64,000 bases of DNA from Azolla caroliniana. Lineage: Eukaryota; Plantae; Polypodiophyta. Below the pieces are notes generated by a model that was given only the letters and a program-made list of their open reading frames with translations, was not told where the DNA came from and searched no databases. Position 1 is the stretch's first letter; the number at the start of each line of letters is the position of its first letter. Below are positions 1-55,100 of the stretch, in pieces. The stretch covers positions 22,134,001-22,198,000 of the forward strand of contig JBHGNT010000011.1 of assembly GCA_043228905.1 (NCBI GenBank), read 5' to 3'. Made by a program: the position numbers and the translations under genes.

Positions 1-635
1 GAACCATGATTGGATACATTTCTAATGATGTGGCACATTCCAAAAGTAATCTATTATTGGAAACAAATATGTTAAGGGCCAGTGGAGAATTCAACATTGA
101 GTTGAAGGAAGACTTGTTTCTCTCACGATGTGTACTTAGGATATTGGTTAGTGGGCGTCTATTACAATCGAGGAAAATTGCTCTAGCAATTTGATGGGGG
201 TACATATGACTATATGAAACCAATATTGTACAATATTAATCTTGTCGCAAGTTACCCTCTTTTTTCCACAATTAAAACTGCCTATCAATCAATCCTAATA
301 GTTCCTTGTTGACTCTTTGGACTTTTACCATGTGACGTTGAGCCAATGGTTAGATTTCTTGCATGGTCTTGATCAAGACTTGGGTTAGATTATCACTACT
401 GACTATCACTAAGAAGCACAATTCTAGGCATGGTCCATATCGGTTATTTAAGCCTCTTAACGATAGGCATGGGGGTTGACGACGTTGATAGGTGTACTAA
501 TGCCCTGAGCGAGCGTGTCGAAGGTTTCGAACGCGTGGGATAAACATTCTTTTCCTGTGGTTTTTTACCAAACCCATTCCCATGGCTTTCTCTGACAAGA
601 TAGTGGTGGTAGGGCACTAGTGCACTAGTAGTAAT

Positions 636-16626: not shown

Positions 16627-19619
16627 GGTTTGGGTTTCAGCTAAGAAAGATCCTTTGCCCGCTTCTTCCTCGACGCTCACTCATTCCTGGACCAGCATTT
16701 CTCTTATGAACAATCAATCCTCTTGATGATGGACTATCATCATCATCATCATCCACAAGAAGCTCTCTCACATCTGGTGTGTCCATGGGAACAAAACAAC
16801 TTCAAATTTCTGGTTTGCCGATGGGAAAATATGAACTTGAATTGACCGTCGAATGGTGAAGCTCCGAATCTCTCCTTAGTTGTAGGTAGTGCATTGCTTT
16901 TTGCATTATGACTCGAATTCAGTGTGTGTAAATACGCCTAATTAGAAAACATGTAATGTTTCATTCCACCATATTGGTCCTGGTTGGACAAGAACTAGGC
17001 TTCTAATTATGCGTTATGTATCAATTTGAATAGATATAGGTCCAATTAGTAGTCGCCCTCCCATGGATGTTTATGATATAGTCAATATTGGGGTTTTTGT
17101 ACTTATAAAGCTAGTTACATTAACATTTGCACTATTATTTCCCTTCATAAAGTCATTCTATAGAGGGGATTCATCCTTGATGATGATGATGCTAGTAGAT
17201 GTCTATGTCTTGAGTGCACAACACACTCCACAATTATATCCTAACTTCTAAGTCATGCTCATGCCTAATACATTATGCATGTGAGGAAATGGTGGATTGA
17301 ACGAGGGGACTATCATTATAACTTTTCCTTTCACTATTTTGTTTATTTTGCTTTTAGGAGATATATTTGCAAACTAATTTTCGTTGAGTAAAGAGGCGTT
17401 TTAAACATGACATTAATTTGCAAGAAACATATGAACGATGGGTAGATTTGCAAAACAAGATCACATGAAGATTTGAAGAGATCGAAGTATCGCAAACATG
17501 ATCATAGGTGCCACATGGAAAACAATACATTTGGGGGGAAAGGAAGCCACATAGAATAATATGATTGCTTTCAGTCAACTGGCAGTGAAAGTTATTGAAG
17601 CTTTCATTGTTGATGTGATAGCGCTTTAAGAAGATAAACCATACATAACAACTTATACATCCAAATTTGGATGATAAAAAAACCCATATGCTCTCAAGTG
17701 CCTCCCAAGTGATGGCTCTATTGGAGGGTGCGATTTTCTTTGAACTCCACTTAATGGGACTCAAGTTCTAGGTATCAAAGACAAATACCCATGAGAAACC
17801 TCACATCAACTACACTGAAGCAATAGACCATTTGGGAAATTCACATATGTCATTGGTTCATGCAATATGTAGCTCATTTTCGGAGTGATTCTTACCTCAA
17901 TGAGATCTTAAGGGCAAGGATTTGTGACAAAACATTTCTAGTTTGTTCTGAGTCGATGTCTTGAAGCTTACCAAATTCATAGAGTGACCCTAGGGATTGA
18001 GCAGACGTTATGGGGTTTTCCTTGTATTTAGGTTGAGTCCAAGAATTTATAGAAGGGCTTTGTATAGACCATACGATATCGTGAAAGAAAGAGATGGGGT
18101 GATATTCCTCTTTTCTTTTCTTTTTTCCAAAAACCACTACTTCTCATCAGTTAGCAAATAGAATACAACAAAGTTTGTCCAAATCCACAATGGGATCAAC
18201 ATAGACAACTTGGAAAACAACTCCAAAACTATCAAACAAAAACAATAAAAAAACTCAATTGATCCTTAACTCAAGCAAAATTGAAATAAACCCTATTTTA
18301 CCCCGACTGTACAGTTCCCAACAGACTCTTTTCTAACAACATTATCCGGGTAACATGACTATACCAACACATGTTTGTGTCAGCTATACATACATAATTA
18401 CAACCCATGTACAATATTGGGAGCCATCGGTGGAAACAGCCACCTAGGTGCCTGGTAATTCCACTTAGGGCTCGATGAAGATTTGACTAGCATGGGAGAG
18501 CTACTCCATTTCAGCAAGAACTTGGACCTTGCCCTTTCTACTTCTTCTGAATCCCCTTGAATCAAATCATACCAACCGCGCAACCAAGCCACAAGATCAA
18601 ACTAGATATTTAACATCATCTCCCCACATGAGAGGTTTTGCTGCGGAAAAACAAACTTACAACGCTTGATCTAGATGTGCCAGGCCGTCAAACATGCCAC
18701 CATAAGCCAAATCTCCTCAAAAAATTCAGAATTTGTGTCTGGTCTCACCCCATCACATTGGAACACGCTACCACCCTGCACTATATAATCCATGTCCTTG
18801 TGGGTTTAACCATTCGCCCCAACTTTCCCCTTTTAGGGACAATCCTTGTATTGAGCCCCACACAACGTTCCCTTTCACACCACAGACTGCCACGATTCGA
18901 AGGCTTCTACTCCAAATGTTAATCGCCTCTGTATAATTCCAAAAACAGTGAGAGATTGATTCCAAAGCCTGTCCACATAACTTACAACTAGCCTCACCAC
19001 CACGGGAGCTCAACCACTCGCCTACAGGTATCGCCTTGTGGCTAAGAAGCCACAACCAAGCCTTAATTTTTTCTAGCATATCCAATGCCCATAGTCTCCT
19101 CCAAAACGACTTCAAATCAGCGTTTGAAATGCCTTTATCCTTCCTGCTGTTGTGAATCATTCCAGCACCCACAGTTTTGGAGCCAATGATTCGTCTTCCT
19201 AGCTTGGTATTGTATTCAAAAAACTTTTTCAAGATTTTTGTTCCTGGAGTCTGCCACCAAACCTCCAATGGATCCCACTCCAAATCATATAAGAGCTTGT
19301 TATCGTAAAGCCATATTTTACAATCATGATCCAGTGTCTTAGGGTCTGGGTTCAATTGCCACCACTTACCCGCCAACACTGTCACTCGCACTGCCATCCA
19401 CCTACCATCATCTATCAAAGAACTTAGGTTACCCCAGAAACGATCCCCGCTAGTTGAGCACCTACCACGTGTAAGTTGTGCATCACCCTCACCTACAAAC
19501 CAGCCTAACCAAACTGTCTCTTCTGCAGTCAACTTATCCAATCCATCAACAACCCCATCTATCAGTTGGGTTACCTTCTCTAGTCTTCCAGTAATCCTAT
19601 AATTAACATCCTGACCCGC

Positions 19620-20062
19620 TGTCAGGAATAGTACTAAAACAGAGATGGAATTAGTACAAAGAACAGCAGTACTATTAGTACTAAGAGGACGGGACTGCGT
19701 AAGATTCCCGAGAGAGGAAGTGAGAAGAGGAGAGAGAGAGAGATAGCGAGAATGAGAGAGAGAGAGAGAGAGATGATGACAGCAGCTATATATTATGTGA
19801 AAAGATAAGTACAAGCGGCTAAGAGGCTTAAGACTGGCGTTGAACCAATTTGGTTCAAAACAATGCCTTGTGCCTCCTTTTATAGTGTTTTTAGGAATAA
19901 TCCTGAAGCTTCTAGAATGTTCCAGAGAGATCTGGAATATACATCAATTTTCTATGATAAAGTATAAATGAAAATAATATCCTACAAAATACAATTCATA
20001 ATCTAATGGTAAGAGCTCGACCCATGTAGCATAAAGTCATGGGTTCGAGTCTTGCCATGACA
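19620..20062 (-). repeat. 3' LTR (443 bp)
   Basis: By eye it matches 24871-25315 except one A/T substitution (TTAGTACAAAG vs TTAGTACTAAG) and (GA)10 vs (GA)11. Confidence 0.97.
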
Positions 20063-20075
20063 CTATCTCCCCCTT
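20063..20075 (-). other. Polypurine tract
   Basis: AAGGGGGAGATAG on the minus strand, immediately before the 3' LTR. Confidence 0.9.
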
Positions 20076-23000
20076 AAAGACGACGAGTGGAACGAGTCGG
20101 CGCTAATTGCGGACCGGGTTTGTCCGGATACTTTCGGTGGAAATCAGCAAGAAGATCTTGTGAATTGGCAACATTCTCGACGGGTTCCCAAGTACGTTCG
20201 CTCGGACTATAACCGAGCCAATCGACCAAGTAATAAAGTTTGTTGCGAATAAGTTTGGAATCGAGGATGGCAGCAACTTCATACTCCGGGCCGGCGTCCA
20301 ACTCCAGCGGGGGCGGCGGTGGTGTCACACGATCGGGAATGGTGTTTGCTTTATAAGGTTCAAGAAGAGAACAATGGAAAACCGGATGTATCTGAAGCTG
20401 CGGAGGGAGATCCAGGCGGAAGGTGACATCATTAATCTTCCCCGTAATACGGAAAGGACCGAGTCGTCGATAATCCAACTTGTCGCACGGTCGAGTAGTC
20501 TTGATGTGACGACGTAAGAGCCATACTCGATCTCCGATGGCAAAAGAGGATGGAATCCGATGACGATCCGCATAAGTCTTCTGTGTGTGTTGAGCATGAC
20601 GAAGGTGAGTAGAGAGATCCATCTGGATCTTGCGTAGCCTCTCCAAATGGTCCTCGGCACGAGGGTTGGTAGGTAGCTCCGGAGTGTCGATCACCGACCA
20701 GCGAGGATGGAAACCGGTATAAGCGAGAAATGGGGAGACCCGAGTCGAGGAGTGAATAGCATTATTATACGCAAACTCCGCAAAGTGGAGAATCTCGGCC
20801 CAATCGTCCTGTTGATAACTCAGGAAACACCGGAGATATTGCTCCAACGTTTGGTTTGTTCGTTCCGCCTGTCCGTCAGTTTGAGGATGGTAGCCGGAGG
20901 AGAGGTTGCAGGAGACCTTGAGCATCCTGAAGAGATGCTGCCAAAATTTGGAGACAAATTGCGGGCCTCGGTCACTGATAATACTGTCTGGTAGGCCATG
21001 ATGCCGAAATACCTCACGCATAACAAGAGCGGCGGTTTCCTCGCTAGTGATGGCTTTAGTACATGGCACAAAATGTGCCATCTTCGTATATCGATCGACG
21101 ACGGTTAGGATAGCATCGAACCCCTTCGAGACCGGCAGATCTGTAATAAAATCAAGACAAATAGACTGCCATGGCTTACTTGGAATTGGTAAAGGTTCCA
21201 ACAAGCCATATGGATGGTGTCGTGGCATCTTTGCTCGGCAGCAAGCATCACAGGTCCGAACATAGTCGTCGACAAAACGGCACATGTGGGGCCACCAAAA
21301 ATATCGCTGCACTAACTCCAACGTCTTGGTACTACCGAAATGTCCCGCCGTATGGGTGTCGTGACAATGTTGGACGATTTGAAGGCGACAGGAGCAATCG
21401 GGGACATATACGCGCTTTTTAAAGAATAACAAACCATCACGATATTCGAATTGTCGGTAGTCAATACCTGGTTGTTGAGACTGAGAACAGGATGCCCGAG
21501 AAGTATCAATGTGCGCCAGGATGTCTTGAGCAAAACTATCCGTCTTCAAGGTTGCACGTATGTCATCGGTAATCCGTGAATCCATCGGGGTGTGAAAAAT
21601 CCGCGTCGTGTGCAATCGTGTTGGTCCCAAGATTACTTGCTTTTGATTATCAAATGTTGCGTCACCAGGACGAGGTGCAAGATATGAACGCCGTGATAGT
21701 GCATCTGCTTTTCCTTGCTGCTTCCCCGGTCGATATGTGATTTTGAAGTTGAAACGCGTGAGGAATTGCGCCCACCGAGCTTGCCGTCGATTTAGTACGC
21801 GAGCGTTCTGAAAATAAGCAAGATTTTTATGATCGCTAAAGACAATGACCTGATGTGGAGAGCCCTCTAAGAAATGCCGCCATTGTACAAATGAATCCAC
21901 GATGGCTAATAACTCCTTGTCATGTATTTCGTAGTTGATTTCTGCGACATTGAATTTGCGCGAATGGAAAGCCACCGGATGCAACTCTTCTTTATCGCCT
22001 TGTTGAGAAAGGATGCTACCGAGGGCGAAATCTGATGCGTCGGCCTCCATGATGAATGGTTTGCTTGTATCCACATGAGCTAGAATCGGTGCTGATGTAA
22101 AGGCTTTCTTAAGATGCCGAAAAGCCATATCTGCTTCGATGGACCAAAGAAATGCTTGGCCCTTCTTCGTAAGTTGTGTGAGAGGTAAAATAATCTTCGA
22201 GTAATCCTGTATAAACTTACGGTAGAAGTTAGCAAAGCCTAGAAAACATTGTACATCTCGTACCGACCGTGGAATTTGCCACTCTAGTACAGTTTGGATT
22301 TTAGCTGGATCCATGGCGATGCCCTTTGAGGAGATGACGTAGCCTAGAAATTCCACTTGCTTGCAGTCAAAGCTACATTTCTCTAGCTTGGCATAAAGAC
22401 CATTCTCGCGGAGTCGCTTTAGTACTAATAGTACATGAGAATCGTGCTCTTCCTGGGTCTTCGAATAAATCAACATATCATCCAGATAAATGATCAAACA
22501 GATATCCAAGAGGTCTTTGAATATATCATTTGCCATGTGTTGGAAGACTGCGGGTGCATTGGTTAGGCCAAACGGCATAACAGTATATTCGAAATGCCCA
22601 TACCGCGTGCGAAAAGCGGTCTTCCACTCATCTCCCAGTCGGATCCGCACGAGATTATACGCTCCTCGTAGGTCGATTTTAGTAAAAAAACTTGGCACCA
22701 TTAACTCGCTCTAAAAGACTTGATATAAGAGGAAGTGCATACCTATTCCGGATGGTGACTTTATTCAATCCGCGGTAATCAACGACAAGACGAAGTGAGC
22801 CATCTTTCTTCTTGACAAAGAAGATGGGTGCACCGGCCGGAGATTTCGAATGACGGATGAACCCGCTTGCCAAGTTCTCCTCTATGTAGGCTCGAAGGAC
22901 TTCTAACTCGGTGGGTGACAAGTTGTAAATTGGTCCCCATGGTGGCTCGGTTCCTGGTTGTAAATCGATGGGACAGTCATAGGGACGGTGATGAGGAAGG

Positions 23001-23656
23001 GTACCGGCTTTTACCTTGTCAAATACATCGGCATAAGGATGATATTTTGCCGGAAGTTGTATTGAGGAGTCCTTCTTAATAGTGCTAGAAGGATGTACTG
23101 ATATGGCAAATAGGAACATTGCCTCCTTTGGTCCTTCTTCGCGTAGTTGATGGAGTGAAATGGTCGAAACTCGATGAGTTGATTCTTGGGGTGGTCGATA
23201 TCGGACTTCTCTTGTTCTCCAATCTATGGCTGGATTATGTAATTCAAGCCAAGGTAATCCTAGGACAATAGGATGCTCTGGACTACTAATTATATTAAAT
23301 GATATTATACACACAAAACTACCTAGGACAACTTGAATGGGTTCTGATTCTTCTACAATATTCCCGGAAGCAATGGGACGACCATCAATGACCACTACAG
23401 ATGCGGGACAAGGAAGTTTTCTTAAGGATATCTGAGAAGCTTGAGCAAAATTTCGATCCATGAAACAGGAATTAGCTCCGGAATCTAAAAGTGCTAGGAC
23501 GGGTACTGGGGGAGTACTTTTAGTACTAACAATGACTTGGGCTAGGAACACATTGCTAACTTGCTTGGAAGGAATGGAACCACTAATGGGCTGTACAGAT
23601 CTAGGGCTGCTGTCCAACCAAATGGCTCCTATTTTGGCTGGACTCAATCGTTTAAC
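20074..23656 (-). CDS. pol: pol (protease, RT, RNase H, integrase, chromodomain), expressed by predicted -1 frameshift; carries one extra T at 22684-22690
   Basis: ALLDSGA (protease); [23 protein letters not shown] (RT); EADASD..DKELLAI (RH); HHCC zinc finger, [22 protein letters not shown] (IN); GPF module; [21 protein letters not shown] (chromodomain). Confidence 0.93.
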
Positions 23657-24801
23657 TCTTCATCTAATTGACTAAGGATTTCAAATTTATTTGAGATACT
23701 TGGGCTATTAGTACTATGAATACTATCTGACACTCTATTAGTACTATTAATACTATCAGACACTCCGAAGGGAAGAATTGACTCAGGTTTAGTACAGGCG
23801 ACGATTTGATTTACCTGTATTCTTGGCCTATGGGGACAATTGATGGCGATATGTCCTGGTCCACCGCAATAAAGACATAATCGATTGACACGTCGTCGTT
23901 GCTTTTCTTCTTCCGATAACGGGCCGCGTCGACGCATGGTATCGATCTCCATCGGTGTCGAAGTATTTGCTTGAGGTATGTCTCGTGCAAACGGTTTAGC
24001 CGCGACTGCGGCGTAAGTGGGCTCTGGCCTAGAGCGTGGTATCTGTAATTGACGTTCTGAACGCCGTTCAAAAAGGCGGTTGTCACATCGAACTGCTCGA
24101 CTGATTGCCTCCGTAAGAGACTTTGGTTCTTCGGGGAAAGTTAGAAGTAGATCTTTGACATCGTTTCGCAAGCCATAGCGAAACTGCTCCATTAGTGCTT
24201 GATCATCCCAGGGTATATCTGAAGCAAGTAGGCGGAAATCCGCCGCGTAGGCAGAGGCTGGACGATCGCCTTGACGCAATCGCCGGATCTTGTTGATCGC
24301 CGTCCTGATGCTGTCGGTGTCTCCAAAGCAGGCTTTAAACTCACCAATAAAATCTTCAAAGTTATTAAGTAAGGGTGATTGTTTTTCTAGAAGCGGAGCA
24401 AACCATGCCAAGGCTGAGCCGCTAAGTAGCGTGCCTATTAGGCCGACTCGAGATGCATCAGTGGGATATCGGGAAGGATGCATCTGGATGACTAAGCGTA
24501 CCTGATTAAGGAATCCCCGGAATTGCGAACGCGTTCCATCAAATTTCACAGGAAGTCCAATCTTGGGCTCTTTATGAAATCCTTGGGGACTGGATCCTTG
24601 TTGTTGCAACGCTGCTTCGAGTTGTTGTACCCGTAACGCTAACTCCCCATGTTGTTGTTGCGTTTGTTGTTTTTCTAGAGCGATTTGTTGCAGATCCCCT
24701 ATCAACCGTTGGTTTTCTTGTTCCAGGGCAACAAACTTTTCTTTTAGGCACTGTAGCTCGGAGAAAACGGATTGGTATTCTTGGGCGCTAACAGTAGCCA
24801 T
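23644..24801 (-). CDS. gag: gag: coiled coil, retrotransposon capsid ([15 protein letters not shown]; [12 protein letters not shown]), PMEID motif, CCHC knuckle [14 protein letters not shown]
   Basis: 385-aa ORF with motifs typical of sushi/PEG10/Tcn1-type Gag. Confidence 0.93.
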
Positions 24802-24856
24802 AGTATAGGGAAAAGGGTAGGAGGATGAGGGAGAGTGACAAGTAGGCTAGAGGAAA

Positions 24857-24868
24857 AAATTGGTTCAA
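24857..24868 (-). promoter_or_regulatory. Non-tRNA primer-binding site (putative self-priming)
   Basis: TTGAACCAATTT starts 2 nt inside the 5' LTR boundary. It lacks the TGG complement of tRNA CCA and is the exact reverse complement of AAATTGGTTCAA at 25104-25093. Confidence 0.8.
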
Positions 24869-25130
24869 ACTGTCAGGAATAGTACTAAAACAGAGATGGA
24901 ATTAGTACTAAGAACAGCAGTACTATTAGTACTAAGAGGACGGGACTGCGTAAGATTCCCGAGAGAGGAAGTGAGAAGAGGAGAGAGAGAGAGATAGCGA
25001 GAATGAGAGAGAGAGAGAGAGAGAGATGATGACAGCAGCTATATATTATGTGAAAAGATAAGTACAAGCGGCTAAGAGGCTTAAGACTGGCGTTGAACCA
25101 ATTTGGTTCAAAACAATGCCTTGTGCCTCC

Positions 25131-25191
25131 TTTTATAGTGTTTTTAGGAATAATCCTGAAGCTTCTAGAATGTTCCAGAGAGATCTGGAAT
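25131..25191 (-). promoter_or_regulatory. LTR promoter: heat-shock element (25157-25176, degenerate extension to ~25191) and TATA box (25137-25131); duplicated at ~19878-19938
   Basis: tGAAg cTTCt aGAAt gTTCc gives four perfect alternating nGAAn units about 20 bp upstream of TATAAAA. Confidence 0.8.
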
Positions 25192-25244
25192 ATACATCAA
25201 TTTTCTATGATAAAGTATAAATGAAAATAATATCCTACAAAATA

Positions 25245-25315
25245 CAATTCATAATCTAATGGTAAGAGCTCGACCCATGTAGCATAAAGTCATGGGTTCG
25301 AGTCTTGCCATGACA
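25245..25315 (+). other. tRNA-like A-box/B-box module at the outer end of the LTR (also 19992-20062), antisense to the element
   Basis: A-box-like TAATCTAATGG and B-box GGTTCGAGTC at tRNA spacing, with variable-loop-like AAGTC. Acceptor and anticodon stems are not intact. Confidence 0.55.
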
Positions 25316-28300
25316 CCCGCCCGCCTCTTCATGCTGAAGACTTCCCAATCATGTACCGATCGAATCTTGTACCCTAGCATCCTCCCCCAAGGCAAGTACT
25401 TTTGTTGTCCAAGCATCATACCATCTTCGCTTCTAATCCTAGGGTTCCAAAACAACGGTTGTTGTAGTTGTTCATCTAGTGTTTTCGGTTGCATTAAGAC
25501 CAACCCTTCTCTTAAACATGACCATGCCTTCATTATGGTGTGAACCACCCTATCCTCCATGCTAGCTGGTTCTTTCAACTTTAGAGTTGCATTGAACCAC
25601 CACCATGTATTTGCTTACCAAGGACCACCATTCCTGGGACACCAAAGGTCAACTCTATTCCTAAGGAGCACCTTCCACAATTCTGGTCCGGGTTGCAAAC
25701 TCCGCACCAAAAGCTTACCAAGTAGAGCCTTGCTTTGGTGAACCATATCCACTAGTCCAAGTCCTCCCTCGTTCTTTGTCTTAATTAAACAACCCCACGC
25801 CACTTTAGCTGATGCCATTTCATCGTCTCTACCCGACCACAAGAAGCCTCTCACCATTGCCTTAATATTTTTTATGCAGGGTTTGTCTAACATCCAACAT
25901 GCCATTGAATGCCACATGGTGGCCAGCAAAATATGGTTCACCACCACAACCCTACCAGCAAGGGAGAGCTTTATTGATGCCCACAACCGAAGCTTTTTTC
26001 TAATTTTGTCTTTGACCTGCTCAAGCTGCTGATTTTTAGGTGTCTCAACTCCCACCAAGAAGCCCAAATACTTAACAGCCATGCCATTGGGGACCCATTG
26101 AAAATCAACGTTAGGCTACCATAACGGTCGTGGGTCATTCCCTTGCAAGTAAAGCATAGTGTCATCTGCATACTCAAAGTCCAGCAACTCCTTACTCGCA
26201 TGTGGAATAACTAAACCCCTTGTTCCTGCATCCGATCTGTTCAAAAAGAAAGAGAATGACTCTGTAATAAATAAATAAAGATAGGGGGCCAGCGGGCACC
26301 CCTGTCTAACAGACCTGCGTAATGGAATCGACGGGCCACAATGCCCTGTCACTAACACCCTACTTGAACTTCGTTTGTAAAGGGCTAGCGCAACCGATCG
26401 CCACTTTAAAGGTAAACCCAACCTTTCCATGACTTTATCTAAAAAAGGCCACTGAACTCTATCATATGCCTTCTCAAAGTCAAGCATGAGACAGGCAATG
26501 TGCTAATTGGTTTTCTTTGCCAAGGCAATCACCTCCCAAAATGTCAACACATTATCAATTATGCATTTGTTTTCCATGAACCCTGTTTGTCCAACATGGA
26601 TTAGTTCTTGCAGGTAGGGTTTTACCCTCTTGGCTTGTATATTAGGAAATATCTTATATATTGTGTTGAGGAACGTGATTGGTCTCCATTGCCTTGCATC
26701 AGTTGTTACACCTTGTACCTTAGGAATTAGAAATATCATCCCCTCTTGAAATTGCTCAGGTAAGTACCCAACATCCCATGCCTCTTTTAGCCCATCACCC
26801 AAATCTGCCTTGATCATGTCCCAAAAATTTTCGAAAAAATCACTTCATAATCCATCGAAGCCTGGACAAGACGTTCTACAAATACCTGCCAAAGCATCAA
26901 CCACCTCCTCCTCCAAGAGAGGCCTCGCCAAATTAGCTTGTGTCGCATCTGAAAATTTGTGTTGCATTCCCTCTAGCACATATTCTATCATAGCAGGTTG
27001 TTCGGGGCTATTGTAACTATCTGAAAGCAACTCATGATAGTGTGATGTGACCGCCTCCAAGATCTTTGAAATATCCTCCGACATAGAGCCATCTCCCTTA
27101 ACCAGCTTCGGATCGTAGCTATAGTTTGTTCTAGGCTGTTTATGCATGAAAAATTGTTTATTCACCTTATCCCCATTTTTTCTCCACCATGCTACCGAAC
27201 TCCTAAATAGCATCGTATTTTTGGATGCAATCAAGCATTGCAACGTTTCTCTGGCGGCCTCGAGGCTTGCCCTAGACCGTTGGCATCGGGGATCTTTCTG
27301 TAGAAGCCTTTGGGCAGCTGCTATTGATCTCCTTAAACACATTGCTTCCTCCTTAGACCTCGCAATTCTAATTTTCGTCGCCCTATGGAGATAAGTTGAC
27401 CTTTCGATAATCTTCCCTTGAAGTTTATCAAGTGCGCCACACCCAGCTGAATTGCTTTCCCATATACGCCTTATGTTTCTACTCACCTCTGCATCCTCAA
27501 AAAGTTTTTTGTTGATCCTCACATTGCAGTCCCTTGCTGGTCTCCTCTGCATTTCTAGCGTTATCTTAACCGACATATGATTAGAGTAGGCTGAACCCGC
27601 AATGATTTCAACATTGGTTCCAAATTTTTCTAGTTCTGGACTGATGTATATTTTGTCTATGCGAGCCATGCAAAAGCCATGCATACTGCAACCTGCTCTC
27701 GAAAAACTTAGCGAACTTCGAGACTTTTTTATTACATGCTAGGCATCTTTCACCCCCATTCGATCCATAAGCAAATCCTACGCAACTAGCTCAGCCCCCT
27801 GCACCACCATTGACATACCCCCTACTTTGTCCTCTTTGTACAAAGTCATGTTAAAATCCTTAGCAAGGATCCATGCATTTGCCATCGGCAGAGCATCGGC
27901 CAATTGCCTCCAAAAAAGGGTATGGTTCGTTGACGAATTGGGCACATACACATTTATTATGCCAATTATACATTGGACCCATCTAATAGTCACATAGATG
28001 GCACGTCCCTCCACTATGGTGTCCTAACCCACCACAACGACATCTGAAGACTTCCTTATAGATGTACAGACACTCCCTTTCCTATCGTGCTCACCTTGAA
28101 CTGGGGACCAGAACGTCTGCCAATCTCCCTCAAGGGGATTACCAATATTCAAGATCTTGTTCGCACTTAGATGGTCCTATTCCAACAGTAATATATCTGG
28201 GGCCCCCTTGAAACTTGGGGAAGTTCTTCCTCTCCAACATGCATTTGCTACCCCCTAGACCTTGTATGTTCCATGTGAGTAATTTCATCAAAACATGAGT

Positions 28301-28332
28301 GAAGTTTCCCATGACGGACATAACCCCTCCCC

Positions 28333-29790
28333 TTGAGTCCATGCCCAACCGCCCTTACTAAGCTCTCCCATCCCAACACAACATCCTGCCGCATTGCATC
28401 CTCTATTTCCTCCTCATGGAGGTGCAATACCTCATGGAGGCAATCTACCCTCTCTTCTATGCTTAGTAGCAACTATTTTTTAATGCATGAATCATTGACC
28501 CTCCCACAAATCATTTTAGCATTCATCCACATCACTCTCCAGTTATCTCCATACGAAGTGATGGGCAAATTGTTAAAGTACTTGTTCACCCTACCGGTTA
28601 TGGAACTCGAGATCCATTCCATGTTATTGGCTGAAATCTCCAGGCCTGTCAGGTCAAAAGATAAACAAGCATTTGGCAACTTGTTGCGTTCATTGACAAC
28701 CACATAAACCCTCAGCCTTGGGCCTTCCTCATGACATAAGTCAATCATTCTCTTGAGAGCCTGTTGGCTAAACCTGCACCCCTTGTCGAACCTATCCCTT
28801 ACTGATCTTTTGGACTGAACAAATTTCACCGGAACTTGAGCATCTATGCCTAAAGTTACTTGTCTTGTCTCATGCAACTTCTGAGTTTCGGAACTAATTG
28901 GTGAGCTTTCTTGCCCCCTCCCAGTACGCAACCACTCTTTCATCGCTCTCAGTCTGATACTTCCACTCTTACCAAGCAAGGCATCAGGTGTGCACACTGC
29001 CACCTCTTCAACATTATTTGAGCTTTGATCTTGCAACATATCCTCTTCTTCTAACAATGCCTCAAACCTATTCTTCAACCTTACATGAGGCATAGTTGTG
29101 TTTCCTTCTTGCTACAAGCGATTTTTTCACCCCAAAACCAAAGTCCAAGAGTCTGTATTAGCCTTCTCCTTCACTACCCCATTGAGGGTGTTCTGATATT
29201 TCACCCCTATATTCTCTTGCTTAGCAACCTGCCCTTTCTCCTTTCCCACCCTCCCATTACCATTGATCTTCTTAGGGCATTCCTTAGCAATGTGACCCTT
29301 CTTTTTACAATGAAAACATTAGCTAGGTAAGCCCTCGTATTTCACCGCCACATCTATCAGTCATGCTTCTACATCATGAACCCTAATTATAGGGGGGAGT
29401 TTGGACGAACTTTGCATAAGCACTCTAATCTTAGGGTAGTCCATGACTCTATCTACCATCGTTGCCTTTGAGGGACAGACGATGCCAATCTTATCCCCAA
29501 TCTTTGGAATCAAGGGGTATAACTGGCGAGGCAGATTTGGGAATATCATAGAAATCACCCGAGGGTTACCAATTTTCTTGTCTTCCTCCATAGCATTGAA
29601 GTTAGCATGCCACTCGAGCAAAAGAGCTCTTCCATATTTGAGCTCTACAAATTTCATATCCACAATCCGCGATACAGCACCCCCCTCGACCACTTCAACA
29701 TGGAAGAAATTTCGACCCATATTGTGCACATTAGAACATGTCCTCTGTGGCGTCCAATTCCACAACCCAATCCAACCCCTGTGACAATCC
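28333..29790 (-). pseudogene. LINE ORF1 remnant (DUF4283-like region plus CCHC zinc knuckle)
   Basis: ORFs 29361-29765 and 28473-29093. YEGLPS*CFHCKKKGHIAKECP at ~29340-29275 has an in-frame stop. Confidence 0.75.
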
Positions 29791-30276
29791 GCCTGCTTGC
29801 ATTACTGCATTATGGAGGAGGCCGCGGGCAGGCAGGGGTGATATTCCTCTTGATTGAGAGGTTATTATATATAAAAGTTATCCTTTATGGAATTCCTTTT
29901 GTTTAAGCACATGCAATAACACCATAAGGAGTAAAGAGTACATGCATCTCTATCGGTGTGTACAACCATCGATCTCGCGAGTAAATAACCTACACGTTCG
30001 CACTCGGAAACCACGTATGTATGTCATTGTTGTGATCCCATAGCTCTTAAAGTCATTGGGCTAGCTAGGTGTTCCTTCAAGGACAAGTTAGAGGCCACTT
30101 CCCTAATGGGCCATACCTTCTTCACATACATACATACATAGCGGGAAGTGAGAGAAAGAACCCTCCAATGATACTCTAACTCCTCCCCAAACCTTTCCTA
30201 GATATACATATATACATATACCCCCAACAGAGTTTCTCTGAGACACTCGCTCCTCTCTCCCCTTCTCCGTGTAAGT

Positions 30277-31308
30277 ATGGCGACCTCTGTTTGTATTCTA
30301 TCCTTAGCTCTCCTCCTCTGCTCACCCACTCTAGCTTTCCTCGTCCCTTCCTCATCTCCACACTTGTCCTATCATCATGGCCCTCTCCTTGCCGGCCCCC
30401 AGCCTATCAATCTCTACCTCACATACTATGGCAAATTTCGACCCTCAGATCAAGCCACTCTTCGCGCTTTCCTCTCTTCCCTCTCAGGGATCAAAGAAGA
30501 TCAGCATCCCCAACGCCGATCCATGCGAACTACCCCTTACAATAATATTATAGAGACCCCCACCCCCACTGTGGCTAATTGGTGGGCAGTCACCCGCCAT
30601 TACGCTGATGTGAAGGGGCGATCTGTTTCTCAGAAGTTGGAAGTGTGCGGTGAGACGAAGGATGATACCTACTCTCTAGGTCGCCATCTCAAGGCAGAGG
30701 ATATAGCCCTCTTGGCAAAAACCACTGCGGAAGCCTTCTCGGTGGCGGTGGGGGGCGCTTATTCGGGGAATTCTGTAATTTTGATCTTCACGGCTCAGGA
30801 TGTGTACATCGAAGGGTTTTGCATGCACTCATGTGGCGGCCATTCCGAGATGCACATGGAAAGCCCTAATAATGGAGGGGGGAGTAAGGTGCCCTATGCA
30901 TGGGTGGGGAATTCTGGGGAGCAATGCCCGGGCTTGTGTGCATGGCCATTCGCACGTCCACAATATGGGCCCCCTATGGATCCTCTCAAGGCTCCTAATG
31001 GCCGAGACGTGGATGGGATGGTCATAACCCTAGCCAAACTCTTGGTTTCCATTGCAACGAACCCCTTGGGCAATGCCTATTACCAAGGTGGTGATGGTGG
31101 TGATAATGTCTCTAATAACTTTGGCCTTGAAGTTGGTGGAGCTTGCTTCGGGCAATTTGGAACAGGGTCATACCCTGGCTACCCTGGTCTCCTCGTCTCT
31201 AACCCAACAACAGGTGCAAGCTATAATGTGGAAGGCATTGGTGGAACCCAGTTCTTGGTGCCTTGGATATGGAATCCTTCCACTCTCTCATGTGTCGGTC
31301 AAGCTTAA
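30277..31308 (+). CDS. EXORDIUM / phosphate-induced PHI-1 family secreted protein; intronless
   Basis: Signal peptide; LSYHHGPLL, PTVANWW, LIFTAQDVYIEGFCMHSCGGH, YAWVGNSGEQCPGLCAWPF, APNGRDVDGMVI, ATNPLGNAYYQG, YPGYPG, ASYNVEG..FLVPWIWNP. Confidence 0.93.
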   Translation: MATSVCILSLALLLCSPTLAFLVPSSSPHLSYHHGPLLAGPQPINLYLTYYGKFRPSDQATLRAFLSSLSGIKEDQHPQRRSMRTTPYNNIIETPTPTVANWWAVTRHYADVKGRSVSQKLEVCGETKDDTYSLGRHLKAEDIALLAKTTAEAFSVAVGGAYSGNSVILIFTAQDVYIEGFCMHSCGGHSEMHMESPNNGGGSKVPYAWVGNSGEQCPGLCAWPFARPQYGPPMDPLKAPNGRDVDGMVITLAKLLVSIATNPLGNAYYQGGDGGDNVSNNFGLEVGGACFGQFGTGSYPGYPGLLVSNPTTGASYNVEGIGGTQFLVPWIWNPSTLSCVGQA

Positions 31309-49100: not shown

Positions 49101-52100
49101 GTTCTATTTTCATAAAACTTTGGTTGGCTCATCCATCCCAAATCTGACTGAAACTTCTTCGAGGTCAATTATTACCAGAATTGAACTTGGGTTGCCTGGT
49201 GAAACAAAGCCAGGTATCCTAACCTGACTAGACAAGAATGGATCCACATCTTGATATTCAAAATTTACATACATATGTGTATCAATTCTAGAAGCAGAAG
49301 GTGAAAACATGCAAACAGAACAATGTGTTCATCTTGAAAACAATATATAGATATATTGTGTCAAAGCCTATGAGTAATAGCACAGTGCGTGAAATTGAGC
49401 ATAGTTGGTCAAGGGATTGGCTTCCATTGTAATAGAAAAGAAATGCATCGGGTTTTCTGTATAGCAATAGAATAATAACAATGCTCCAGTCGATCTATCC
49501 AATAATAGATTTTAATGAAATATTATTTTATGAAATTTATTCCTTTATGAGCCTCTCATTTAGTTTTTATGTATTTATTTATTTCTGTATCTTGGTCTCA
49601 TTTATTTTTCAATATACTTAAAGATCCTCTAGTAATTTGCTGAGCTGAAAGTTTTCTGCCTTTTAATGAGATCATGCAGATATGTTGTGACTCCTTATAC
49701 AGACTACCCTGAATTACTTGGTTTGCTGCTTCGCTTATTAAATGGAGATCTTGCATGGTCTACAAGAGTAGAAGTGCTTAAGGTACAAAGTGATTTTGAG
49801 TATACTTGATAAATGCGTATGGAACTTTCTAAAAAATGTGTTTTGTTAATTTTTATTCTCAGGTTTTAGGAATATTGGGTGCACTTGATCCTCACAGACA
49901 TAAACATAATCAACAGTCACTGCAAGGGGTTCATAGAGAAGGGAATCATGCAGATGTCCGGCAGCAGATGCATTCTATGGAAGAACTTCCCCTTGATCTC
50001 CTGCCTGCAGGAGGGCTATTTACGACTTCTGAGGATTACTACTCAACGGTACTCCATTTTCCCAACTCTTGCATATCTTTAAGAAGTATTTTCCTGATTA
50101 TATTTAGTTCTGTGATTCTTTATAGGTTGCGATACATGCATTGATGCGCATTTTAAAGGATCCTCAGTCAAGCTACCACCAGAAAGTTGTGGGGTCTCTC
50201 ATGTTTATCTTCAAGGTATGGGAGGCATTCTCTTTGGTTCTGGTGCCATGAAGCCATTTTGATTCGCAGAGATTGCATCCAATTTATTTGGATTGACTGC
50301 TGCCTTTTGTTACATTTTTCTGACTTTTTGTGTATTTGCAATGCTGATATTTCAGACCATGGGGCTTGGCTCTGTCCCATATCTTTCGAAGGTGAGTAAA
50401 ATGGTTCAGAAACTTTATTTCTCATTTCTTTTTGAGCATTGAGGGCAATGTATGCAACACATGAATTGCGTTTGCATTCTTTTTCAATACATTGTTGATC
50501 ATTGTTTGTCCCTGTTCCATATCTTTCGAATGTGAGTAAAATGGTTCAGAAACTTTATTTCTCATTTTTTTTTTGAGCATCGAGGGCAATGTATGCTATA
50601 CATGAATTGCATTTGCTTTCTTCTTCAATACATTGGTGATCACTGTTTGTTTGCTCACATAGTACATCGATGAAAGATATTGAGATTTTATAGCTATAGT
50701 CTAGCTATAAATTGTCTGATGGATATTAAATTTGTCTTTATTTAATGGAACCATTTGTTTACAGTGTAAGCAGTTGTGTCGAGCTACAGTTTTGATGTGC
50801 ATTGTTGCTTTATTTTGTCAAGCTATGTGTTTTCATTTTCTACTAGTTTATAATGTGTTTTGTTCTATTATTTAAGAGAAAGAAAGATATATTAACCCCT
50901 CTTAGGAGGCCAAAAGGGCCTATACGACCAAATGAGGGATTACATCATAAGTGTTGTCTCGTCTTTGAGAACAACAAATCAAAATAAATAAATTTTCCTA
51001 GGTAAAAAATTAAATAAGATAAAAAAGACTAGAGAATCTTGTTATCAATACATGCAAGATTCTCAAGTTAGACATATTGTAAATTTTTTTCAAAAGATCT
51101 CTAGCATAGGTTGATCGAGAATGGAGGGTCCCCGAAGTGAGTGAAGCACCTTTCAATGGCGGGAGATAATGGCCTTTATCTATCAATGACAAGGGTAATG
51201 AGATCATGATCCATGGGGCCGGGCCCTACGTGCACGACAAATTGCTATTGCCTGATCTATTGTAACCTCTTTGTTATTTCCTAGTTGGGAGCCCATTTGT
51301 GTAGCACATGATTGACTTGTAGCATGAGTAGGAGTGATGGAGCTAAAGAATTTTATGATGTTCTTTGTTGATGAGCTTGTGTCGCTCTACTGTTATCCTT
51401 CAACAATTTTTCCATGTGTCTCTTGAGTTCTAGCAAGAAAAGCCCCAACTGCTGTTGGTCATATTCCATTACCTTGCATACTGGGCCAGAGCCTTGCTTA
51501 AAGAGGCAATGGTATCTCCCCCTTATTTCATAAGAAACACTAGAGTGACAAACATAATGTTCTTCAGATTCCACTCCCTGATGACACAATTGACAAATTC
51601 TTTCTTCTAGAAGTATTAGTGCATATCATCCTACCTCAATCTCTAACTGATGTGATGAAGTTTGCAGTTGCCCTATCACACTGCACAATGCATATTCCTA
51701 CCAAGGGATATTTTGGGGTTGATTTATATTATACTGTTTTCCAAGTTAATAATATCAGTTCAAACCACTGTATTCTTTTCCAGTTTGATCATGTTTAGAT
51801 GACATCAATCTAATCTATACAGTAATGGGGGTAGTGCATTTATGATTATACTATGTGACTTGAACCATGGTTGCATTTTAGCATACCAACAATAGATGTC
51901 TCCATGTTCAGCAAGTTGTTTTTATGACATAATTGCCAATCTTGAGTACCATCGTTTAGGGAACTCCAAAGCAATTGGATATAGGTCACTGATCAGAATA
52001 ATGCCTTGATGATTATAGAGGCTGCTCCCATCTCTGCAGAAAGAAAGAAAGATATATTAATGTCTTTTAAGAGGCCAAAATGGCCTATAAGACCAAACAA

Positions 52101-55100
52101 GAGATTACATCTTAAGTGTTATCTCGTCGTTGAGAACAACATATCAAAAAAATAAGCAAATAATACTCCGTAAATATAAAAGTATATAAGATAAAAAGAC
52201 ACGAGGGAATCTGGTTTTCGGCACATGAGAGATTCTCAAGTTAGATATATAGTAGCTTTTGTCTTCAAAAGATCTCTAGCATAGGTCGATCCAGAATGGA
52301 AATGTCTCTGAAGTGAGGGAAGCACCTATGATGGCGGGAGATAATGGCTTTTATCTATCGATGTCAAGGGTGTCGAGGTCGTGGTCCATGGGGGCTGGGC
52401 CTACGTGCATGGCAAATTGCTATTACCCGATCAATTGTAACCCCTTTGATATGTCTTGGTCTGGAGCCCATTTGTGTATCCCGTGATGGACTTGTAGGAT
52501 TAGTAGGAGTGATGGGGCTAAAGAAAGTTGTGATTGTTCTTTGTGGATGAGCTTGTGTGGCTATATTCTTCAACAACTTTTCCCGATGTCTCTTGAGCTA
52601 TAGCAAGAAAAGTTCTAGGCATTGTTGGTCCTCATATTCCATTACCTTGCGCAGTGGGCCAAAGCCTTGTTTAAAGAGGCAATGGTATTTCCATCTGATT
52701 TCATAAAAGGCACTACAATGACAAACATAGTGTTCCTCAGATTCCACTCCTCGATGACACAATTGGCAAATTCTCTCTTCTAGAGGTAGTCGTGTATATC
52801 TGCCTACCTCAATCTGTAGCAGAGAAGAGGATCAACTTTTGGGGTTAATAACTCTTCTGTGAGCATCAATAATGAATGATGTACCAGAGGAATGGCCATT
52901 CCCAACAGTGAAGGAGACAAAAGTTTCTCTGATATGAAAGCTACTATCAAAAAAGTGCTTTGGTCCTGGTCATGAGCCAGAAAGAGATAAACCAATGCTT
53001 TATACATGCTTATTGATACAGGTATAGACATAAACTATGAACAATCAAAAGTAGATACAATCAACTGTCTGCCTAGAAAAGTAGAAAATCCCATGTATCA
53101 AAAGAGCTCACAAGTATGTGTAATCTAAGTGACATAATGGAAGCATAATGACAGTAGGGTGAATATCACCCTGTCCTCTGAATCATTATTTTGTCTAAGA
53201 CCATGGAACTGTTTTAATGGTGATTTCCGATGTATGTCAACACATAGTTTTCATGGCAGAGTTGGTACTTTATCAACATGGAACCATAGATATTAAAATT
53301 TTCAAGATAAATAACGACAAAATAAAATTGAGATATCTGAAATGCATCAGAAGGGAATAAAGAGTTGACCTGCATGTGCAGTTGTTTGAGAGTTGATATT
53401 TTAATTCTGTAAATCATGGTGGTATTCTTGTATGAATGTTACATTGAAATTTTACATGTTTTTTCTCAGGTGATGCCGGATCTTTTTATTACAGTTCGAT
53501 CATGTGATGACAGCTTGAGGGAGTTCATATTTTTGCAGCTTGCATTGCTGGTTTCTATTGTGAAACAGGTACAAAAATATGGACCAATAATAGAAATCTT
53601 ACATGCTGGGTACAAGTTTGCATATATAGATAATTAGTTTCCTTTGGTTGCCCAAATGAATGTAAAATAGATATGTCTAATTTCTCTCTTTTTTATCTTA
53701 ATTTTTACAGCACATTCGGAAATATTTACCTGAAATGCTTTTACTTATCTCTGACTTTTGGTCCACTCTGCTTCTGCCTACACCAAGACGACCTAACAGT
53801 GGATCACCTGTAGTTTGAAACCCCTTGATCATCTAGAAGTTTTATTTATAGTCTTCTCCAATAAATATACAAATGTAATGTTTATATTTGGAGATCTCGT
53901 AGGCATCATGTGCATTTGGTTTTTGCAGATATTAAATCTGTTAGAACAATTATGCAAGGCTCTCAACGATGAGTTTCGGACATATATGCCAAAAATCTTA
54001 CCACGATTCATTCAAGCATTGAGTGATGCTGAAAGGAACTCTGGTTATGCTTGTGTGCCACCTATATTACACACGTTGGAGGTTTTTGGCAGTGAGTCTC
54101 TAGCACTTCTCAAAATTTAAATAGCCAACTTGAATTTTTCCTAACAGTCATGTTTTTTCTCTATGGTCATCATCACTTGGCACTGAAGGTGCTTCCCTCG
54201 TGTTGGAGATATTTTCATATTGAATATTTTCCGAAGGCAGAAATTTCAGTCTATCTAACTTTAGAATCTTAAGTGCTTAAATTTGCACACTATGTTTACT
54301 TATATTATTTTGGCTTTTTGTTCAAAAAGAAGAGACAACTTTTTGAGTAAAAATTGTTTATTTAGTCTTATAAGCCATCTGGCCTCTTTAAAGACATTAA
54401 TATATCTTTATTTATTTATTTCTACGGCAGGCAATTTGGATGAACACATGCATCTGTTACTTCCAGCATTAATTCGTTTATTCAAGCCAGATGCATCTGA
54501 TGCACCTTTAGACATCAGACGTGCAACCATCAGGGCACTTATCCAACTGATTCCGGTGGTACAAGTATGTAAATGCTCTTCTGGAAATAGGTTGTTTGAT
54601 GTTAATGATTCAATATGAATGAATAAACACTATGTATTTGTGATTCAAGGAGAATTTCTCTGTTAAATTTTACCATTCGGTAGTTTTTCATGAATAAATT
54701 ACCAAGGTCAACCCAAGAGGACTGGCTTTTTGTTCTGGATGATACACTTTGAAATTCACAGACAAGCACAGATGATTTAGCTGTCTGTTAGTTTTTCATG
54801 AATAAATTACCAAGGTCATCTCAATAGGACCTGCTTTTTGTTCTGGATGATACACTTTGAAATTCACAGATAAGCACAGATGTTTTAGCTGTCTGTTGTT
54901 AATGACTAGAGAATCAAGATTCTGTAAAATTAGAAGTGCAGCTCTAATCCTAAACTTTCTGTCTGTGAAAGGATCCATCTGCATAGAAATGAACTGGGTT
55001 AGTATCGACGAAGAAGTAATGTAACCCCAAACAAGGGCAGTGTACACATTGATGAAACTTGACTTCAGATTATTTCAATGGATTCAATGAATTATACATG

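What the first reader, a model, noticed from the sequence alone, without database searches (positions are those of the whole stretch)
24857..25137. tRNA-independent, Tf1-type self-priming architecture in a plant chromovirus
Seen: the PBS position (2 nt inside the 5' LTR) reads TTGAACCAATTT, with no TGG. Its exact 12-nt complement AAATTGGTTCAA lies in the LTR, starting 33 nt downstream of the first T of TATAAAA at a pyrimidine-purine (C-A) step, where the transcript should start. Established: S. pombe Tf1 primes minus-strand synthesis with the first 11 nt of its own RNA, and fungal-type (Tcn1/sushi) chromoviruses are proposed to do likewise, whereas most seed-plant LTR elements use tRNA. Inference: this young element folds its 5' end onto the PBS and self-primes, and belongs to the fungal-related chromovirus lineage of non-seed plants. 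The primer is also one half of a DNA palindrome (TTGAACCAAATTGGTTCAA) straddling the predicted U3/R border.
Basis: partly seen in the sequence, partly recalled or inferred. Interest (0 to 1): 0.8.

Follow-up and report, generated by a model that had tools for sequence, protein, structure and literature searches.

The report
Retrotransposon misfires fossilise self-priming joint
An abundant plant jumping gene has no tRNA primer site but carries a matching 12-letter stretch at the predicted start of its own RNA, so it likely primes its own copying, as already predicted for its family; dozens of faulty inserted copies preserve the exact joint where that primer would have been extended, which is new supporting evidence.

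Summary
The element is a young 5,696-bp chromovirus on the minus strand. Its 12-nt PBS has an exact complement 33 nt after TATA. Six primer/PBS pairs co-vary across related families, no host tRNA 3' end fits (partial tRNA set), and the RT groups with fungal and vertebrate chromoviruses. Self-priming itself is not new: REXdb predicts it for 83% of Tcn1 elements. New here: 57 genomic places hold chimeras in which U3 plus the primer is joined directly to antisense U5/R, the predicted primer-cDNA joint. Of 20 with a far end assigned, 13 have an exact 5-bp TSD. The antisense arm stops at R11-19 in 11 of 34 events (1.4 expected) and never in R1-10; 4 of 11 later events repeat this. That fits Tf1-type cleavage after nt 12. 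Fold-back of plus-strand DNA remains a rival origin for the chimeras. The start site is not mapped. A U3 hairpin that could mask the 3' primer copy is strong in two other families but showed no effect on misfire rate.

The parts
24871..25315 (-). 5' LTR (445 nt, TG..CA)
19620..20062 (-). 3' LTR (443 nt); holds a second copy of the primer with U3 attached upstream (19840-19851)
25316..25320 (-). 5-bp target site duplication, left copy (right copy 19615-19619)
25131..25137 (-). TATA box candidate (TATAAAA)
   Evidence: spacing to primer 31-33 nt in six primer types
25093..25104 (-). 12-nt self-primer; predicted R1-R12, predicted RNA start at 25104 and predicted cleavage between 25093 and 25092
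25093..25111 (.). Interrupted palindrome across the predicted U3/R border; as RNA in the 3' LTR an 8-bp hairpin over the primer copy
24870..24918 (-). Predicted U5 stem-loop stacked on the primer:PBS duplex
   Evidence: z -3.3
24857..24868 (-). Primer binding site, 2 nt (GT) downstream of the 5' LTR
24851..24856 (-). Hypervariable bases directly after the PBS (20 versions in 53 copies); likely scar of the plus-strand strong-stop end
23644..24801 (-). gag ORF (Retrotrans_gag, Ty3_capsid, DUF4939, CCHC)
22679..23659 (-). pol, first part (protease, start of RT), overlapping gag in another frame
20074..22710 (-). pol, second part after a frame break (RT, RNase H, integrase, SH3, chromodomain with Y/W/Y cage residues)
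20063..20075 (-). Polypurine tract

Best explanation
This is a Tcn1-type chromovirus whose RNA likely starts at about 25104 and likely folds its first 12 nt onto the PBS, where its RNase H would cut after nt 12 to free a primer, as in Tf1; the genome holds dozens of inserted chimeras in which U3 plus these 12 nt is joined directly to antisense U5, the predicted primer-cDNA joint. Shown: the PBS/primer match, its co-variation, the chimera structure, their TSDs and where their arms end. Inferred: in a few percent of events a second copy of the primer that still has U3 and the PPT upstream (the 3' LTR copy, or a read-through RNA from a tandem or circular copy) pairs with the PBS, is cut at the same place and is extended. 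The strong-stop DNA ends at the cut 5' end of the template (R13), jumps to internal sequence, the PPT sets a new left end at the U3 TG, and integrase inserts the product. Inferred: the plus strand copies the primer and adds cap-directed or untemplated bases, which scrambles the bases just after the PBS.
For: Six primer/PBS pairs, each matching its own LTR, PBS at offset 2, TATA+31..33; 83 of 96 copies have a perfect pair, including 21 with a two-sided change. Primer:PBS duplex is in the MFE fold, z -5.3. tRNA 3'-end match at most 2 nt in 49 distinct tRNA calls. RT groups with fungal and vertebrate chromoviruses, 100/99. 46 of 53 places and 11 more are U3-primer|antisense-U5 chimeras. TSD exact in 13 and one mismatch in 4 of 20; exact in 3 and one mismatch in 2 of 10 more. 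Arm ends at R11-19 in 11 of 34 against 1.4 expected, none in R1-10; 4 of 11 later events end at R13-19, none in R1-10. In L195 the arm runs on through R, U3, the PPT and internal sequence like a normal minus strand. PBS intact in 53 of 53 copies while the next bases differ from the mode in 35 of 53; in a second family 39 of 39 have C right after the PBS.
Against: The RNA start and the cleavage were not observed. The R11-19 window was chosen after seeing the first set, so its P value (7e-8) is post hoc. Fold-back of plus-strand DNA can make the same joint. Left and right U3 of chimeras come from the same subfamily, so a two-RNA origin is not shown. TSD was not found in 3 of 20. Co-variation is expected from primer copying alone and does not prove selection. 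The third duplex of the Tf1 pretzel (leader with R) is absent from the MFE fold. Tandem PPT-LTR-PBS copies are rare, 1 of 77.
Confidence: 0.8

Rival explanations
1. The element self-primes, but the chimeras come from fold-back of plus-strand strong-stop DNA: its 3' PBS copy pairs with R1-12 on the same strand and is extended into U3. Copies of this hairpin stall near the stem base and jump.
For: Needs only the 12-bp inverted repeat. Explains two-U3-ended products such as L141 (TSD exact) and normal elements whose PBS match runs 4-9 nt into U3 (L138, L146, L149, L158, L159). Left and right U3 are identical in 5 of 16 scored chimeras.
Against: The U3|primer border, where fold-back would start, is unchanged in 41 of 47 joints (read by eye), while 35 of 53 normal copies are altered after the PBS; but normal copies gather changes over many cycles and fold-back may select matched ends. 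Arms that jump to antisense internal sequence or run into the PPT (L164, L168, L183, L190, L195) behave like minus-strand strong-stop DNA.
Confidence: 0.2
2. The U3 arm of the palindrome is a decoy PBS that folds over the 3' LTR copy of the primer and so limits mis-priming; at the 5' end the arm is not transcribed and the primer is free.
For: Two unrelated primer types have 10-12-bp U3 hairpins with their own sequence, P <= 0.01 against shuffles in 4 contexts; the window's 3' LTR folds an 8-bp hairpin, z -2.3.
Against: Not significant in the window's family (P 0.22) and absent in the AATTCGAATCAA family. The subfamily with the weaker hairpin does not misfire more: 16 of 637 against 37 of 1,041 junctions, P 0.25.
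Confidence: 0.3
3. A tRNA fragment ending in the T-loop primes at the PBS.
For: An 11-nt stretch (last spacer base plus 10 nt of the PBS) is complementary to the T-arm of tRNA-Tyr and tRNA-Thr calls in this genome.
Against: The match is internal, is shorter than the LTR match, was found by a search aimed at it, and cannot explain five other PBS sequences that each track their own LTR or the chimeric joints.
Confidence: 0.03
4. The chimeras are host-made inversions between the two 12-bp inverted repeats, or assembly artefacts.
For: Short inverted repeats can seed inversions (general knowledge).
Against: A simple inversion would resume at the PBS and leader; instead the arms jump to many different internal sites, and the products carry their own TSDs. 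One contig of another organism's run spans the same joint (X4 record 24, depth 3.5; weak).
Confidence: 0.03

Closest known systems
Tcn1 clade of plant chromoviruses (REXdb; Neumann et al. 2019, PMC6317226, passages and supplement 5 read)
   Same: 5-bp TSD, size within 5,466-9,444 bp, gag overlapping pol, chromodomain with aromatic cage residues, PBS complementary to its own LTR, RT next to fungal and vertebrate elements.
   Different: That paper predicted self-priming from a complementary match alone; here co-variation, the post-PBS scar and integrated primer-cDNA joints add evidence. Named Tcn1 references could not be aligned.
Schizosaccharomyces pombe Tf1/Tf2 (as summarised in PMC7175516, PMC11042837, PMC4600332 and bioRxiv 2022.12.06.519325; passages read)
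   Same: Primer from the RNA's 5' end pairs with the PBS; a U5 stem-loop lies beside it; the PBS is copied to the cDNA end with untemplated additions.
   Different: 12-nt rather than 11-nt primer; two overlapping ORFs; only two of the three pretzel duplexes appear in the predicted fold; U3-primer|antisense-U5 insertions were not found described.
SM-Tcn1 of Selaginella (Novikova et al. 2010, PMC2864245, passages read)
   Same: About 5.7 kb, 440-bp LTRs, two ORFs, chromodomain, T-rich leader.
   Different: Those authors found neither a tRNA PBS nor a self-primer; here the self-primer is clear.

Membership tests
Tcn1 clade (REXdb) | Ty3/gypsy domain order with C-terminal chromodomain bearing the aromatic cage | tested here: met
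   Pfam PF00385 at the end of pol; Y, W and Y cage positions present in the translation; similarity to HP1-type chromodomains
Tcn1 clade (REXdb) | 5-bp TSD, 5.5-9.4 kb, gag overlapping pol | tested here: met
   TSD GCGGG, 5,696 bp; ORFs overlap at 23644-23659; reference values
Tcn1 clade (REXdb) | At least 10 bp starting 0-5 bp after the 5' LTR complementary to the LTR, no tRNA PBS | tested here: met
   12 bp at offset 2; tRNA 3'-end match at most 2 nt in a partial tRNA set
Tcn1 clade (REXdb) | RT clusters with fungal and vertebrate Tf1/sushi elements, apart from seed-plant chromoviruses | tested here: met
   26-row clade, 100/99; 32 of 120 listed hits used, labels from source names
Tcn1 clade (REXdb) | Placement against named REXdb/GyDB reference sequences | not testable with these tools
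   The REXdb table and FASTA supplements are too large to read here
Tcn1 clade (REXdb) | Host is a non-seed plant | tested here: inconclusive
   A Phi-1/EXORDIUM gene lies nearby, so a land plant is likely; the lineage was not determined
Tf1-type self-priming | [quoted passage not shown] | not testable with these tools
   No raw RNA reads; indirect support only: TATA+31..33 in six primer types and variation starting right after the PBS
Tf1-type self-priming | RNase H cuts at the 3' end of the primer:PBS duplex | tested here: inconclusive
   Chimeric joints lie exactly after nt 12 and arms pile up at R11-19, but DNA fold-back could mimic this
Tf1-type self-priming | Three-duplex pretzel fold | tested here: inconclusive
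   Central duplex and U5 stem-loop predicted; no leader duplex in the MFE fold
tRNA-primed plant chromoviruses (Tekay, Reina, CRM, Galadriel) | PBS complementary to a tRNA 3' end, starting TGG | tested here: not met
   No TGG; 3'-end match at most 2 nt

The most novel reading that the evidence does not exclude
Self-priming retrotransposons pay for dropping tRNA with a built-in error: the second, U3-attached copy of the primer also pairs with the PBS and is cut and extended, in about 3% of the junctions seen in this genome. The resulting inserted chimeras are a DNA record of Tf1-type RNA cleavage in a plant, exact to the nucleotide, and a sequence signature by which self-priming could be read from any genome; some families counter the error with a decoy PBS hairpin in U3.
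Probability: 0.55. Interest if true: 0.65.

Novelty: new member of a known kind. Interest (0 to 1): 0.5.

Why it matters
Self-priming in plant Tcn1 elements rests, in the papers I could read, on a complementary match alone, and one study of a Selaginella member found no primer at all. The chimeras turn that prediction into something readable from DNA: where the primer ends, where the template starts and how RT jumps afterwards. They also show a route by which this family makes inverted LTR pieces, which form long hairpins if transcribed. The architecture itself is ordinary for the clade.

Tried and rejected
No RNA holder listed for the LTR; the runs laid were contigs of guessed type, so no start site could be read. 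Rfam found nothing meaningful at the LTR and ARAGORN no tRNA in the window. Test for a two-RNA origin of chimeras: inconclusive. Search for chimeras in the AAGGAGATCAA family found none, but only 39 junctions match exactly, about 1 expected, so it is uninformative. Misfire rate against hairpin strength: no difference. A Fisher test used 4 of 47 altered borders; the recount is 6 of 47, so I give the counts and not that P value. Two rows (L026, L130) are chance matches without TATA and were dropped. From the arm-end count of 46 chimeric places I dropped 3 duplicates, 5 that run on into U3 and 4 that could not be scored; one end (L169) was set by eye. L091 and L107 gave no long enough RT match for the tree. 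Simple host inversion and tRNA-fragment priming were rejected (see rivals). The primary Tf1 papers (PMC230564, PMC231564, PMC109269, PMC1563812, PMC1287563, PMC6388632) were not held, so Tf1 details come from reviews and later papers; two REXdb supplements could not be read and may list these PBS types.

Full report
Observation. The finding is the 5' end of an LTR retrotransposon on the minus strand, 25315 to 19620. The LTRs (445 and 443 nt) differ by one substitution and a 2-nt microsatellite indel and are flanked by the TSD GCGGG. Two bases after the 5' LTR lies TTGAACCAATTT (24868-24857); its exact complement is at 25104-25093, 33 nt after the first T of TATAAAA. From the LTR's base composition such a match has a chance of about 2e-4, or 3e-6 at that spacing. 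The ORFs encode Gag, protease, RT, RNase H, integrase and a chromodomain; gag overlaps pol, and pol has a frame break in RT. The family is large: 1,370 exact LTR-end/PBS junctions in the genome, none for the control pattern.

Lineage. The RT/RNase H region is 63% identical to a protein of the fungus Cunninghamella, 52-58% to vertebrate rows, 50-56% to the other fungal rows and 38-47% to seed-plant and algal rows. In a tree of 39 rows (32 of the 120 hits, six own-genome copies and the window) it falls in a 26-row clade of fungal, vertebrate and own-genome elements with support 100/99. No named REXdb references were available. Neumann et al. 2019 (PMC6317226; passages; supplement 5) describe the plant Tcn1 clade as clustering with Tf1/sushi, with 5-bp TSDs, gag overlapping pol, a chromodomain and predicted self-priming in 83% of 1,500 elements.

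Co-variation. Among loci found by the LTR, the junction pattern and the Gag family PF16297 there are six primer sequences: AAATTGGTTCAA, AAATCGGTTCAA, AATTCGGTTCAA, AATTCGAATCAA, AAGGAGATCAA and AAGGTGAACAA. Each matches its own PBS at offset 2 and starts 31-33 nt after a TATA-like box. Of 96 copies of the first three types, 83 have a perfect pair, 3 a mismatch, and in 10 my pattern found no primer. The predicted RNA from 25104 folds with all 12 pairs stacked on a U5 stem-loop, z -5.3. Among 49 distinct tRNA calls, a partial set, no 3' end matches more than 2 nt; the best match is 11 nt inside a T-arm.

Scar after the PBS. In 53 young copies the PBS is intact in all, but the next few bases come in 20 versions and 35 copies differ from the mode. 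In the first 100 of 204 genome matches, read by eye, 99 keep the unconstrained last 7 nt of the PBS and 65 differ just after it; the first base is C in 14, G in 8 and A in none. In the AAGGAGATCAA family 39 of 39 copies have C after the PBS, although the LTR base before the primer is C in most loci seen, which would give G. Tf1 RT copies the primer to the cDNA end and adds untemplated bases (PMC11042837, passages). I infer the same here, with C possibly copied from the cap; cap copying by RT is recalled, not tested. This places the primer's 5' end near 25104, with some blur from the T run.

Chimeras. A contig in run X4 switched strand exactly between primer and PBS, so I searched the genome for that joint. 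It occurs at 53 places, 3.2% of 1,678 exact junctions. Seven are normal or complex elements, mostly with the PBS match running 4-9 nt into U3; 46 read host DNA, TG, all of U3, the 12-nt primer, then directly the complement of GT, U5 and R. A second pattern gave 47 places, 11 of them new. After the antisense arm the sequence jumps to internal sequence, with 0-3 matching bases or a few extra bases at the jumps inspected, and usually ends in a normal PPT and 3' LTR. Of 20 chimeras with a far end assigned, 13 have an exact 5-bp TSD, 4 one mismatch and 3 none; L141, which ends in U3 at both sides, also has an exact TSD. Among 10 more, 3 are exact and 2 have one mismatch. These are therefore integrase products of reverse-transcription errors, not host inversions.

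Where the arms end. Of 34 independent scorable events, 11 end at R11-R19 against 1.4 expected under a uniform model, and none ends in R1-R10. That window was chosen after seeing the data; in the 11 later events 4 end at R13-R19, one runs through and none ends in R1-R10. An uncut template would give ends at R1. Tf1 cuts between bases 11 and 12 of its RNA (PMC7175516, passages); a cut after nt 12 here would leave a template starting at R13. In L195 the arm continues through R, U3, the PPT and internal sequence, like a normal minus strand with a long primer attached; in L164, L168, L183 and L190 it jumps first to antisense internal sequence.

Mechanism. Best reading: normal priming is Tf1-like. 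In a few percent of events a primer copy with U3 and the PPT still upstream is cut and extended instead; the PPT then sets the left end at TG. The source may be the 3' LTR or a read-through RNA from a tandem or circular copy; tandem PPT-LTR-PBS copies are 1 of 77, and I cannot separate these sources. The main rival is fold-back of plus-strand strong-stop DNA, which needs only the inverted repeat and could also stall near R13. Against it, the U3|primer border is unchanged in 41 of 47 joints (by eye), but that comparison with normal copies is not like for like. A test for two parent RNAs was inconclusive. Either route leaves self-priming supported by the other lines.

The palindrome. In the 3' LTR RNA the U3 arm folds over the primer copy (z -2.3). 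Two unrelated primer types have 10-12-bp hairpins of their own sequence (P <= 0.01 in 4 contexts), but the window's family is not significant and one family has none. Misfires are not more common where the hairpin is weaker (16 of 637 against 37 of 1,041). Masking is a lead, not a result.

Literature and novelty. Searches (listings, plus the passages cited) showed no description of such chimeras or of an experimental test of self-priming in a plant. The library lacks the primary Tf1 papers and most subscription journals, so this is not proof of absence. PMC2864245 (passages) reports no primer for Selaginella SM-Tcn1. Earlier scan notes in this genome concern a different, PPT-less family; none matched this DNA. 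Verdict: a new member of a known kind, with an unusually direct DNA record of its priming step. Interest 0.5.

Noticed in passing
window 25259-25311 (first ~57 nt of each LTR): The LTR's outer end folds into a strong hairpin (z -4.9). Read on the opposite strand it holds a tRNA-like B-box; 16 of 17 nt match the variable loop and T-arm of host tRNA-Ile. A similar motif with changed flanks sits at the LTR start of related families (L120, L169, L104, L096). It could be a TFIIIC site or an outward Pol III promoter; Rfam and ARAGORN call no tRNA.
   Followed up: partly
L122, oriented 822-1050 (G000:C13:20924688-20932188): An element whose 5' LTR begins exactly at the first base of the primer, with no U3, preceded by the LTR end, tRNA-type PBS and gag start of an unrelated element: a possible junction at the predicted RNA start.
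   Followed up: no
window 18768-19614 and 25321-29800: The element is inserted into an older, broken LINE on the same strand; the LINE's ORF2 frame resumes after the 3' LTR.
   Followed up: no
L344 (G000:C14:17273300-17280500): A young chimera (96-100% to the window copy) with about ten template jumps in 2.6 kb, still bounded by an exact TSD.
   Followed up: partly
L136, L145, L178, L180: A family with a different LTR uses the same 12-nt primer and also forms the chimeric joint; L178 ends at R15.
   Followed up: partly
window 30202-31308: Intact-looking Phi-1/EXORDIUM-like gene (PF04674) next to the LINE.
   Followed up: no
window 41700-63500: Nested, older repeats with about 1.17-kb direct repeats (50877-52823) and related inverted copies, probably LTRs of another family.
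   Followed up: no
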